Positions 33,001-36,000 of a DNA stretch of 36,877 bases are shown here, piece by piece. The DNA is taken from IMG/VR virus record IMGVR_UViG_2874927903_000002. One strand, 5' to 3'. The stretch comes from a virus (lineage: Duplodnaviria; Heunggongvirae; Uroviricota; Caudoviricetes). Numbering within the stretch: position 1 is the stretch's first letter; each line of letters begins with the position of its first letter. The position numbers are program-made.

Positions 33001-36000
33001 CGACGGACATAAAGCTTACCGGACTCTGGCAAACAAAGTGCCGGAGATCACGCTGGCCGGATGCTGGGCCCATGCCCGCAGGGGCTTCGCCGACCTGTAT
33101 AAAATCAGTAAAGATCCACGGGCTGCCATAGCCGTGAAGAAAATCGCGGGGTTGTACCGTCTTGAGAAGAAGATCAGTAGCCGCCCCGTGGAAAAAATCC
33201 GCCAGTGGCGACAGCGTTATGCCCGTCCGATACTGGAAGAACTGTGGTCATGGCTTGAAGAGCAGGAACCGCAATGTTCTCCGGGAAAGGCATTACACAA
33301 AGCCATTGCCTATGCGCTGTCTCATCGCGTGGAACTGAGCCGCTTCCTGGAAGATGGTGCGGTGCCGCTGGATAATAATGTGTGTGAACGGGCCATCAAA
33401 AACGTGGTTCTGGGCAGAAAATCGTGGCTGTTCGCCGGTTCGCAGATGGCGGGAGAACGCGCCGCGCAAATAATGAGCTTGCTGGAAACCGCGAAACGCA
33501 ACGGTCTGGAGCCGCATGCCTGGTTGACAGACGTCCTGATGCGTCTGCCGGAGTGGCCGGAGGAGCGACTGGCAGAGTTGCTGCCTCTTGAGGGATTTAC
33601 CTTCTCCGGGTGAGTGATACCTGCCGTCAGGTGTTCGTGCACCGGGCCATAACCTGCAGTCGGGAGTTGAACTCCTGACGGCAGGAAATGAGCCAGACCA
33701 GCAACCACGCGGGCTGACAGCGAATAAGAACCTGAATCAGCCCGGAGTCATTCCCGGGTCAGTACATCATCACCTGCAATTAATCCCCGAGTCAGTACTT
33801 CGCGGCCTGACGCGATCACGCTACTCAGTACTTCAGAGCCCGCCTCCGGTACCTGCCTGGCGATCGCCTCTGTGCAACAAAATAAATCAACCGTTATCAA
33901 ACCACGAGCGTTCGTATGCGCCGCCGATGACGCGCGCCTGAAAAATGCGTCAATATGAGTTCCCCGGAAGCTTACAATTTTGATAATCAGTTCACGTAAC
34001 GTCGCCATTCACCTTTCTCCGGGCGTAAAAAAACCGCCTCAGCGGTTCTCATCATTCATGACTGTGCTGCAAAGCTCAGCGCGTCTTCCAGCGCCGCAAA
34101 CGGATCCACCTCCGGCTTATCCTCATCCTCGCCCCAGCAGAGCATGACGTCCTTCAGTGCAACATTCATCCCCTGTGCCCCGAAAACCGCTTTCACGATC
34201 TGTGCATTACGGATATCCCCGCGCTCATCACCCAGCGGGGATATCCTGTCGAACTCCATCCACATCATCGCCTCGCTCGCACTCAGGCTGTGGCGCAGTT
34301 CGGATAAGGTGCGCCCCAGACGGAGCGCAAGTCGCATCAGAAAGCGAATTTCCGGGCGGGCTACTTTTTTCTGGCCGACTCTGCATCAGCGATCAGTTCC
34401 AGTGCCTGACGCAGCAACCGGGCATGTACCGGACCATAGACGGCCAGCACCTGCTCACGGTCGTCCGGAGTGAACACCCGCTGCAGGTCCGTATCACACA
34501 GGACATCGCAGAACAGCGTCACATCCGCTTCCAGGTTACGGCGGGTTTTCGCCACCACCGACAGGGTATCGTCATCCTCTCCATCACCATTGAGCACTTC
34601 CTGCCACAGATACCAGGCCTCTGCCGAAGGCTCCCGCAGCACCACGCTGACATTCCCCCATTCCGGCACCTTCACCGTTTTATGACGAAACCCTGACAGT
34701 CTGGCCAGCGCCAGCGTTTTCAGATCCTTTTTCATGATGACCCATCCCCTTATCCGGCAGCTGCGCTCACTGTCACGGTGCATTCAACAGACGTCACACT
34801 CTGTGCTTTCTCTGCCGAATCGGTCACCACGCAGGTATATTTCCCCGCATCAGCGGACTGCGCACCTGGCTTACTGAAGGTGTCTGTCGTCTGCCCGTCA
34901 ACCGGCTGACCATCCTTCTTCCAGGCGTATTTATACGGCGGCATTCCCCCGTTGGCACTGACTGACATTGTCAGCAGCGCACCGGTATTCACGGTAAGTG
35001 TCTTATCCAGATTTTTCACAAACGCCAGCGGTACCACAAAGGACACCGGTTTGCCTTTCAGACGCAGTGAGAACGTTGCAGCCACCACACCGTTGGTACC
35101 GGATGACCAGGTGTGCTGACGCACTTCCGCCAGGAATTTAGGTAATGACTCCAACTTACTGATAGTGTTTTATGTTCAGATAATGCCCGATGACCTTGTC
35201 ATGCAGCTCCACCGATTTTGAGAACGACAGTGACTTCCGTCCCAGCCTTGCCAGATGTTGTCTCAGATTCAGATTATGTCGCTCAATGCGCTGAGTGTAA
35301 CGCTTGCTGATAACGTGCAGCTTTCCCTTCAGGCGTGATTCATACAGCGGCCAGCCATCCGTCATCCATACCACGACCTCAAAGGCCGACAGCAGGCTCA
35401 GAAGACGCTCCAGTGTGGCCAGAGTGCGTTCACCGAAGACGTGCGCCACAACCGTCCTCCGTATCCTGTCATACGCGTAAAACAGCCAGCGCTGACGTGA
35501 TTTAGCACCGACGTAGCCCCACTGTTCGTCCATTTCAGCGCAGACAATCACATCACTGCCCGGTTGTATGCGCGAGGTTACCGACTGCGGCCTGAGTTTT
35601 TTAAGTGACGTAAAACCGTGTTGAGGCCAACGCCCATAATGCGTGCACTGGCGCGACATCCGACGCCATTCATGGCCATATCAATGATTTTCTGGTGCGT
35701 ACCGGGCTGAGAGGCGGTGTAAGTGAACTGTAGTTGCCATGTTTTACGGCAATGAGAGCAGAGATAGCGCTGATGTCCGGCAGTGCTTTTGCCGTTACGC
35801 ACCACGCCTTCAGTAGCGGAGCAGGAAAGACATCTGATGGAAATGGAAGCCACGCAAGCACCTTAAAATCACCATCATACACTAAATCAGTAAGTTGGCA
35901 GCATTACCCTGCCGTTTTTGCTTCATACTTACACCCTTCAACAATAAAAATGAGAGGGAATGCTTTTGGCCGGGAGTAGTTTACTGACGTTGCTCGATGA

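What the first reader, a model, noticed from the sequence alone, without database searches (positions are those of the whole stretch)
33614..33979. Unusually long 3' non-coding region of the IS66-family element with a hairpin and 33-bp phased repeats
After the tnpC stop there are about 366 bp before the terminal repeat, versus about 30 bp in the other IS66-family element here. The region contains a long hairpin (CCTGCCGTCAGG...CCTGACGGCAGG, about 33622-33686) and three direct repeats of TCAGTAC(A/T)TC starting near 33760, 33793 and 33826, a 33-bp period. This could be a passenger small RNA, an array of transposase-binding sites or a MITE-like insert.
Basis: seen in the sequence. Interest (0 to 1): 0.45.

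Follow-up and report, generated by a model that had tools for sequence, protein, structure and literature searches.

The report
Phased repeat array in ISEc49 right end
The long stretch after the transposase gene is a conserved, non-coding part of the known insertion sequence ISEc49, built around a short motif repeated every 33-34 bp that most likely serves as protein-binding sites; this is a modest curiosity for transposon specialists.

Summary
The element is ISEc49, an IS66-family insertion sequence at 31210-33975 (2766 bp). It has an 8-bp target duplication, AATTTTGA, and sits inside a prophage tape-measure gene. The 362 bp between the tnpC stop and the right tip lie inside the IS. They are present at nine or more independent insertion sites, and homologous long tails (172-372 bp) occur in related enterobacterial IS66 elements. 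More distant IS66 elements, including the second one in this window, have only about 30-40 bp there.

The core feature is the motif TCAGTACTTC-N4-CCTGAC, present 2-5 times in direct orientation at 33-34 bp spacing. It stays conserved where the spacers have diverged, and natural variants have lost exactly 33 or 66 bp. The hairpin is strong in this copy, but covariation does not support it and the wider clade lacks it. Its arms are themselves motif-like copies in opposite orientation.

Tests for coding, a known RNA family, RNA structure over the repeats, a promoter, a terminator or a MITE-like insert were all negative.

Best reading (about 45%, inferred): a right-end-only array of DNA sites for an IS-encoded or host protein. 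The repeats do not resemble the terminal inverted repeats, and nothing identifies the binder.

The parts
31210..33975 (+). Complete IS66-family element (ISEc49), 2766 bp
   Evidence: 99.7% identical over its full length to a copy whose transposase NCBI names 'IS66-like element ISEc49 family transposase'. Boundaries are fixed by the target duplication and by the contiguous empty site.
31202..31209 (.). Left copy of the 8-bp target-site duplication AATTTTGA
33976..33983 (.). Right copy of the 8-bp target-site duplication AATTTTGA
31297..31626 (+). tnpA (109 aa; weak HTH_Tnp_1 match)
   Evidence: annotated as tnpA in the homologous copy L003.
31613..32005 (+). tnpB (IS66 Orf2-like, PF05717)
   Evidence: E 3e-35.
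32012..33613 (+). tnpC, the DDE transposase. The ORF runs from the first ATG; PGAP's start in the homologous copy corresponds to 32048.
   Evidence: DDE_Tnp_IS66 E 2e-90, plus zf-IS66, LZ_Tnp_IS66 and DDE_Tnp_IS66_C..
33614..33975 (+). 3' non-coding right end of the IS (362 bp), the subject of the finding
33620..33636 (+). Left arm of the hairpin; contains a motif-like copy, GTCAGGTGTTC, starting at 33626
33669..33685 (+). Right arm of the hairpin; on the - strand it reads GTCAGGAGTTC, an inverted motif-like copy. It can also pair with 33653-33668 in an alternative hairpin.
   Evidence: (33661-33678, - strand, 3 mismatches).
33725..33742 (+). Unit r0, degenerate in this copy (TAAGAACCTG...). 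It reads TCAGAAC in IS679-like relatives and TCAGTAC in the Serratia relative, and lies 34 bp before r1.
33759..33776 (+). Unit r1: TCAGTACATCATCACCTG
33792..33809 (+). Unit r2: TCAGTACTTCGCGGCCTG(AC). This is the best-conserved unit across all clades.
33825..33842 (+). Unit r3: TCAGTACTTCAGAGCCCG
33949..33975 (+). Right terminal inverted repeat region (GTCAATATGAGTTCCCCGGAAGCTTAC)
   Evidence: pair I10, with 31216-31233; conserved in all relatives.
31210..31236 (+). Left terminal inverted repeat region (GTGTCGTTACGGGGAAGTCATCTTCAT)
33748..34008 (-). Incidental hybrid ORF (86 aa): the first 11 codons of the interrupted tape-measure gene read into the IS. The repeats read as (E/D)VL(S/T) in this frame.
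   Evidence: No Pfam match and no codon-phase signal.

Best explanation
The 362 bp after tnpC are the native, non-coding right end of ISEc49 and its enterobacterial IS66 relatives. The functional core is a cluster of copies of one short DNA motif: core GTCAGTACTTC, usually followed four bases later by CCTGAC, which is the reverse complement of GTCAGG.

In this copy three good copies and one degenerate copy lie in direct orientation at 33-34 bp, roughly three helical turns. Two weaker copies in opposite orientation form the arms of the hairpin.

I infer that these are recognition sites in double-stranded DNA for a sequence-specific protein. The most likely candidates are element-encoded: the small HTH protein TnpA, or the N-terminal zinc-finger/leucine-zipper part of TnpC. 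A host protein is a less likely alternative.

Occupying the array would mark the right end as different from the left end. It could help assemble or regulate the transposition complex, as accessory subterminal sites do in Mu, Tn7 and similar elements.

Shown here: the motif, its phasing, its conservation against diverged spacers, unit-length copy-number changes, and the lack of coding or RNA signals. Inferred only: that a protein binds, which protein, and the effect on transposition.
For: 1. The region is an integral part of the IS. It is intact at nine or more distinct insertion sites of near-identical copies.

2. Between ISEc49 and the IS679-like relative, the 3' region is 79-94% identical while the coding part is 57-86%, mostly 60-80%.

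3. The long tail (172-372 bp) is shared by relatives with TnpC identity of about 60% or more. Relatives at about 33-42% and the second IS66 element in this window have about 30-40 bp.

4. An unanchored MAFFT alignment of 10 clade representatives puts its best-conserved columns in the body of the region on ..TCAG..C (r0) and ACC...TCAGTACTTC....CCTG (r2). In the unit alignment the TCAGxxC core carries 0.9-2.0 bits per position (1.6-2.0 at five of its seven positions); most positions elsewhere in the unit carry 0.1-0.5, with secondary peaks of about 1 bit at the ACC and CCTG parts.

5. The 7-mers most widely shared among 13 clades are CCTGACG (10 clades), AACCTGA, ACTCAGT and TCAGTAC.

6. Spacing is 33 or 34 bp in every clade.

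7. GTCAG/CTGAC occurs 6 times in the region against 0.76 expected (0 of 2000 dinucleotide shuffles).

8. Natural variants have lost exactly 33 bp (one unit) or 66 bp (two units). The -33 variant occurs in 8 E. coli records, including both the chromosome and a plasmid of one strain.

9. A relative whose right end lacks the motif is single-copy in only 6 genomes. Elements matching ISEc49 occur in 1230 genomes, with up to 12 places per genome (these counts include matches to related elements).

10. The repeat stretch has no RNA-folding excess, no codon phase and no promoter or terminator.
Against: No binding experiment exists, and I found no literature on this region.

The units are not significantly similar to either terminal inverted repeat (P 0.16-0.6), so they are not simple extra copies of the transposase's end-binding site.

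There is no matching array at the left end, which has only 87 bp between the tip and tnpA.

Some relatives with long right ends carry only degenerate versions or none (L057, L058, L066, L036). Variants with fewer units persist. The array is therefore not universally required.

The higher identity of the 3' region between ISEc49 and IS679-like elements could partly reflect recombination, since mosaics exist: L030 and L067 combine an IS679-like tnpA with an ISEc49-like tnpC and right end.

Related sequences share ancestry, so conservation of short cores is suggestive rather than proof of selection.
Confidence: 0.45

Rival explanations
1. Functionless degenerate minisatellite. A 33-bp unit duplicated in tandem in an ancestor of this IS66 clade and has since drifted. 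It is carried along because it lies between tnpC and the essential right inverted repeat.
For: Unit number changes by slippage or unequal exchange: -33 and -66 bp variants, and an extra unit in the ISEc49/IS679/Serratia subclade relative to the two-unit forms. Some relatives lack clear units. The -33 variant still occurs at two or more places. Distant IS66 elements manage with about 30-40 bp.
Against: Drift should erase cores and spacers alike. Instead the TCAGTAC/CCTGAC cores persist in clades whose spacers are unalignable. Spacing stays at 33-34 bp. The region as a whole is more conserved than the coding sequence between two IS types. ISs are normally compact, so 200-340 bp of ballast retained across several enterobacterial genera would be unusual.
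Confidence: 0.25
2. RNA-level 3' UTR element. The region is transcribed as the tail of the tnpABC mRNA. The hairpin just after the stop codon protects the message from 3' exonucleases, and the repeated UCAGUACUUC motif binds an RNA-binding protein or pairs with another RNA. Alternatively an antisense RNA is made from the - strand.
For: The hairpin starts 7 nt after the stop codon and is very stable in this copy (-38.2 kcal/mol, z -4.7). No terminator separates tnpC from the region, so it should be co-transcribed. One hairpin pair changes C-G to U-A in two variants, with C-A as the common intermediate; that intermediate would be G-U on the - strand.
Against: No Rfam family matches. Covariation does not exceed shuffles for either hairpin form (350/500 and 113/500). 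In 11 of 16 variants one pair of the stem is mismatched. The hairpin is absent from the wider clade that keeps the repeats. The whole region folds no better than shuffles would explain (z -1.9 and -1.5). The repeat stretch is unstructured. No promoter-like site exists for an independent or antisense transcript, and no terminator would define a 3' end.
Confidence: 0.15
3. Protein-coding or relic coding sequence. Candidates are a small ORF on the - strand (the frame that reads EVLSRVIASGREVLTR..., open for up to 118 codons in IS679-like copies), or a +1-frame extension of TnpC (open for 107 codons here).
For: Open frames are long for non-coding DNA: +1 frame 96-119 codons in most subclade members, and a - strand frame of 75-118 codons. 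The 33-bp period equals 11 codons. PGAP annotates small hypothetical proteins here in some records.
Against: Variable columns fall equally on the three codon phases (39/42/42, p 0.93). In the +1 frame nearly all changes are non-synonymous (for example 3 synonymous versus 23). The +1 frame has no start codon. The - frame has stops in ISEc49 and other variants, and homologues differ by 1- and 4-nt indels and by 34-bp spacings that break the frame. PGAP's ORFs differ in position and frame between records. There is no Pfam match.
Confidence: 0.05
4. Foreign insertion: a MITE or a fragment of another element that landed between tnpC and the right inverted repeat.
For: Distant IS66 elements have only about 30-40 bp here, so the extra 140-340 bp was gained at some point. 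The hairpin superficially resembles terminal inverted repeats.
Against: The region is present in all near-identical copies and homologous across the whole enterobacterial clade. No target duplication flanks the hairpin. The right arm is conserved in relatives that lack the left arm. Stand-alone occurrences are truncated IS right ends next to other IS debris, not mobile mini-elements.
Confidence: 0.03

Closest known systems
ISEc49 / IS679 group of the IS66 family
   Same: It has tnpA-tnpB-tnpC with the IS66 Pfam domains, an 8-bp target duplication and a GTAAGC... right tip. It is 99.7% identical in DNA to a copy annotated as ISEc49.
   Different: Nothing differs: this is that element. Only the internal anatomy of its right end (phased motif array, motif-bearing hairpin) appears undescribed in the literature I could search. 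The original IS679 paper (Han et al. 2001, recalled from memory) could not be opened.
Accessory subterminal transposase-binding sites of Mu, Tn7, Tn402/Tn5053 and IS21-type elements (established knowledge, recalled rather than tested here)
   Same: Several copies of a short motif lie inside one end of a DDE transposon. The two ends are asymmetric. The sites are direct repeats with regular spacing.
   Different: In those elements the internal sites are copies of the terminal binding site and occur at both ends. Here the units show no significant similarity to the terminal repeats and occur only at the right end. No AAA+ partner protein is encoded. Binding is untested.
Plasmid iterons
   Same: Direct repeats with a conserved core of about 10-18 bp and variable spacers, at a fixed spacing close to a whole number of helical turns, with copy number varying by whole units.
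   Different: There is no replication initiator gene or origin context. The unit spacing is 33-34 bp rather than the usual 22. The resemblance is in form only.
IS1111/IS110 or IS200/IS605-type non-coding ends that encode guide or regulatory RNAs
   Same: A long conserved non-coding end next to the transposase gene.
   Different: This is a DDE transposase with ordinary inverted repeats and an 8-bp duplication. There is no RNA family match, no structure or covariation signal over the repeats, and no promoter or terminator.

Membership tests
IS66 family (ISEc49) | Three consecutive genes tnpA, tnpB, tnpC, with tnpC carrying the IS66 DDE domain | tested here: met
   DDE_Tnp_IS66 E 2e-90, zf-IS66, LZ_Tnp_IS66, DDE_Tnp_IS66_C; TnpB_IS66 E 3e-35; tnpA has a weak HTH_Tnp_1 match.
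IS66 family (ISEc49) | 8-bp target-site duplication | tested here: met
   AATTTTGA at 31202-31209 and 33976-33983. The empty site is contiguous in more than 1240 genomes.
IS66 family (ISEc49) | Terminal inverted repeats of about 20-30 bp, typically starting GTAAGC | tested here: met
   Arms 31216-31233 and 33952-33969 are 83% complementary. The right tip reads GTAAGCTTCC on the - strand. The left tip, GTGTCGTTAC, is atypical but shared by all ISEc49 copies.
IS66 family (ISEc49) | Near-identity to the named element | tested here: met
   99.7% over 2766 bp to NZ_CP065614, whose transposase is annotated 'ISEc49 family'. ISfinder itself was not available.
Accessory subterminal transposase-binding repeats (Mu/Tn7-like) | Several copies of one motif inside an end | tested here: met
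Accessory subterminal transposase-binding repeats (Mu/Tn7-like) | Internal sites resemble the terminal site recognised by the transposase | tested here: not met
   Local alignment of units against both inverted repeats is no better than shuffles (P 0.16-0.6).
Accessory subterminal transposase-binding repeats (Mu/Tn7-like) | Sites present at both ends | tested here: not met
   The left end is 87 bp from tip to tnpA and has no array.
Accessory subterminal transposase-binding repeats (Mu/Tn7-like) | Bound by an element-encoded protein and needed for normal transposition | not testable with these tools
   Requires footprinting and transposition assays.
Structured non-coding RNA | Match to a described RNA family | tested here: not met
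   Rfam at gathering thresholds gives 0 hits in the window. The permissive search gives only chance-level hits inside the region.
Structured non-coding RNA | Conserved secondary structure supported by compensatory changes | tested here: not met
   observed measures are reached by 350/500 and 113/500 shuffles. The repeat stretch folds at z -1.1 and -0.7.
Structured non-coding RNA | Own promoter and terminator | tested here: not met
   no site inside 33614-33975 on either strand.
Intrinsic terminator | GC-rich hairpin followed by a U tract | tested here: not met
   The hairpin is followed by AAATGAGCC. The scan finds none.
MITE or foreign insert | Own terminal repeats and target duplication; absent from some otherwise identical host copies | tested here: not met
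   Present in all near-identical copies. No flanking duplication. Homologous across the clade.
Protein-coding gene | Codon-phase bias of substitutions, excess of synonymous changes, and a frame preserved among homologues | tested here: not met

The most novel reading that the evidence does not exclude
One clade of IS66 elements has evolved a dedicated, right-end-only platform of phased sites, unrelated in sequence to the terminal repeats. The platform is read by the so-far function-less accessory proteins TnpA or TnpB. This would give the first handle on what these proteins do, for example end discrimination, cis-preference or target immunity in IS66 transposition.
Probability: 0.25. Interest if true: 0.55.

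Novelty: new variant of a known kind. Interest (0 to 1): 0.3.

Why it matters
IS66-family elements are widespread in pathogenic E. coli, Shigella and plasmids, yet the roles of TnpA and TnpB and the make-up of the transposition complex are essentially unknown.

A conserved, phased, right-end-specific motif array gives a concrete and cheap experimental target: gel shifts with TnpA, TnpB and TnpC, and scrambling the cores in a transposition assay.

For annotation, the result shows that the small 'hypothetical proteins' called in this region are spurious. It also shows that the IS here inactivates a prophage tape-measure gene.

If the array proves functionless, the finding is simply the ordinary tail of a known IS.

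Tried and rejected
1. Coding. I checked six-frame open frames, synonymous versus non-synonymous counts and codon-phase counts. The long open +1 frame and - strand frame carry no coding signature.

2. Known RNA families: none.

3. Counting by hand, the - strand rescues 13 mismatched cells as G-U but loses 17 others, so there is no strand preference.

4. Promoter and terminator scans of the region and of the whole IS: nothing in the region.

5. Similarity of the units to the inverted repeats: not significant. My by-eye impression that GTCAATATGAGTTC in the right repeat is a stretched GTCAGTACTTC is therefore dropped.

6. Extending the 33-bp periodicity upstream to the stop codon (units at 33627, 33660, 33693): lag 33 is not significant for 33614-33758 alone. 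It remains only a suggestion.

7. Tandem Repeats Finder: no array.

8. The first genome-contig scan with the single TnpC found nothing. The alignment-based scan worked.

9. A viral-contig scan for the motif returned only ISEc49 copies plus one chance hit.

10. The original IS679 paper could not be opened. Literature searches on IS66 ends, mechanism and structure returned nothing relevant.

11. By-eye comparisons with IHF, SlmA, LexA and Dam sites showed only partial, non-conserved matches and were dropped. These were not computed tests.
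Full report
**What is there.**
The tnpC ORF ends at 33613. The sequence then runs 362 bp to ...GGAAGCTTAC at 33975, which is followed by AATTTTGA (33976-33983). The same 8 bp occur at 31202-31209, just before the left tip. Removing 31210-33983 restores a 517-codon reading frame on the - strand that starts at 34008 and carries tape-measure domains. The reconstructed empty site is contiguous in more than 1240 E. coli genomes under 'phage tail tape measure protein | phage tail assembly protein T'.

The element is therefore 31210-33975 (2766 bp) with an 8-bp duplication. 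It has tnpA, tnpB and tnpC with all IS66 Pfam domains. It is 99.7% identical to a plasmid copy whose transposase NCBI names ISEc49.

The non-coding tail is 362 bp rather than 366. The hairpin arms are 33620-33636 and 33669-33685, with folding energy -38.2 kcal/mol and z -4.7. TCAGTAC occurs at 33759, 33792 and 33825, exactly 33 bp apart, and lag-33 autocorrelation gives z 5.9. The second IS66-family element in the window (- strand, about 8540-11045) has about 30 bp after tnpC.

**Is it part of the IS?**
Yes. Near-identical ISEc49 copies from E. coli genomes, plasmids, metagenomes and viral contigs carry the intact 362 bp next to at least nine different flanking sequences. Two IMG/VR contigs show the very same prophage insertion as this window.

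The IS679-like relative is 57-86% identical (mostly 60-80%) through the genes but 79-94% identical from the last 100 bp of tnpC through the tail. A Serratia plasmid element shows the same trend more weakly.

Using a TnpC alignment I fetched 99 related loci. All enterobacterial relatives with TnpC identity of roughly 60% or more have a long tail of 172-372 bp. These come from Escherichia, Shigella, Serratia, Erwinia, Cedecea and Edaphovirga, from a truncated Citrobacter copy, and from metagenomic contigs. Relatives at about 33-42% identity have 30-40 bp. The long tail is therefore a clade character, not a recent insert.

**Anatomy.**
Where the tails have diverged beyond easy alignment, one thing persists: TCAGTACTTC, then four variable bases, then CCTGAC(G). 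It is repeated in direct orientation at 33 or 34 bp.
- There are three copies in the L034 group and three in the Erwinia type.
- There are two in the Cedecea, Edaphovirga, L047, L048 and L008 types.
- There are four to five in the ISEc49, IS679 and Serratia types.

An unanchored MAFFT alignment of ten clade representatives places its best-conserved columns in the body of the region exactly on two of these units; the only other strongly conserved block is the terminal repeat. The most widely shared 7-mers among 13 clades are CCTGACG, AACCTGA, ACTCAGT and TCAGTAC.

CCTGAC is the reverse complement of GTCAGG, so each unit is a loose inverted pair of a GTCAG half-site. GTCAG/CTGAC occurs six times in the 362 bp against 0.76 expected.

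The two hairpin arms each contain a motif-like copy, GTCAGGTGTTC on the + strand and GTCAGGAGTTC on the - strand. The hairpin can therefore be read as two sites in opposite orientation.

Natural variants have lost exactly 33 bp (one unit) or 66 bp (two units), and one has lost 53 bp. The -33 form is present in eight E. coli records, including a chromosome and a plasmid of one strain. The -66 form appears in one record. A relative whose tail lacks the motif is single-copy in six genomes. There is no comparable array in the 87-bp left end.

**What it is not.**
- *Not coding.* Variable alignment columns fall 39/42/42 on the three phases. The 107-codon open +1 frame has almost only non-synonymous differences and no start codon. 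The - strand frame that reads (E/D)VL(S/T)R repeats is broken by stops, by 1- and 4-nt indels and by 34-bp spacings. PGAP's small hypothetical proteins here differ in place and frame between records.
- *Not a described RNA*.
- *Not a demonstrably structured RNA.* The whole tail folds at z -1.9 (+) and -1.5 (-), and the repeat stretch at -1.1 and -0.7. In 11 of 16 variants one stem pair is a C-A mismatch, and the wider clade lacks the left arm.
- *No promoter-like or terminator-like site* lies in the tail on either strand.
- *Not a MITE.* There is no duplication around it, it is never missing from otherwise identical copies, and stand-alone pieces are truncated IS ends.

**Most likely mechanism.**
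The pattern is a short conserved core, free spacers, fixed spacing of about three helical turns, whole-unit gain and loss, and occasional opposite orientation. This is what arrays of protein-recognition sites in DNA look like.

I therefore favour (about 0.45) a right-end-specific binding platform. The most plausible binder is an element protein: TnpA has a weak HTH match, and TnpC has N-terminal zinc-finger and zipper domains. The platform would make the two ends unequal and would assist or regulate assembly of the transposition complex. All of this beyond the sequence pattern is inference.

Three results limit the claim:
- The units do not resemble the terminal inverted repeats.
- They are absent from the left end.
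- Lineages with fewer or no clear units exist.

The main rival (about 0.25) is a drifting, functionless minisatellite. An RNA-level 3' UTR role, mainly for the hairpin, gets about 0.15. Coding and foreign insertion get 0.05 or less each.

**Comparison with known systems.**
The element itself is a known IS (ISEc49, IS66 family), and all membership features tested were met.

The array works like the accessory subterminal sites of Mu, Tn7 or Tn402-type transposons, and like iterons in form. It fails two defining features of the former, namely similarity to the terminal site and presence at both ends. It lacks the replication context of the latter. I therefore do not file it as a member of either.

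I found no description of this feature in the searchable literature.

**Verdict.**
This is a real, conserved, non-coding feature of a known IS. The finding is of modest interest as an experimental handle on IS66 accessory proteins.

Noticed in passing
window 29684-34008 (- strand), interrupted at 31210-33975: The IS sits 33 bp into a lambdoid prophage tape-measure gene (TMP_3 and Phage_HK97_TLTM domains), leaving an 11-codon stub fused to IS sequence. The prophage tail module is presumably defective. The identical insertion is present in two IMG/VR contigs (L108, L110).
   Followed up: partly
window 34027-34094 (- strand): Weak match to the Rfam isrK Hfq-binding sRNA (27.1 bits, E 7e-4, below the gathering score of 50). 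It lies at the end of the tail assembly gene T and the terminator-like hairpin just upstream of the tape-measure start, outside the IS.
   Followed up: no
window 507-1682 (-) and 7104-8279 (+): Two 391-aa IS110-family transposase genes (DEDD_Tnp_IS110 plus Transposase_20) lie in inverted orientation and bracket about 5.4 kb. I did not examine whether they form a composite unit or carry the non-coding RNA typical of that family.
   Followed up: no
window about 8540-11045 (- strand): A second, unrelated IS66-family element (TnpC 35% identical to that of ISEc49). Its tnpC appears split: a 376-aa ORF at 8572-9702 plus a separate N-terminal match at 9732-9827. It abuts one of the IS110-family copies.
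   Followed up: partly
loci L030, L067 (metagenome contigs): Mosaic IS66 elements: tnpA and the left end are IS679-like (66% identical to ISEc49 TnpA), but tnpC and the right end are ISEc49-like (91-98%). Recombination between these IS types occurs, so identity profiles along the element must be read with care.
   Followed up: partly
window 31232-31259 (+ strand): By eye, TTCATA-16 nt-TAGTAT overlaps the inner edge of the left inverted repeat. The equivalent TTCACA...TAGCAT is conserved in relatives. This is a plausible tnpA promoter, but at 8 of 12 matches it falls below the scan's threshold and was not reported by it.
   Followed up: partly
locus L027, about 310 bp after the tnpC stop; loci L013, L081, L082: In these copies the right-end region is interrupted or truncated by other inserted DNA.
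   Followed up: no
Shigella virulence-type plasmids, e.g. L006 3001-3240: A 240-bp fragment of this right-end region (88% identical, first 240 bp only) is fixed and unannotated on more than 100 Shigella plasmids, next to IS1 and ccdAB. It looks like a relic of an old IS66-type element.
   Followed up: partly
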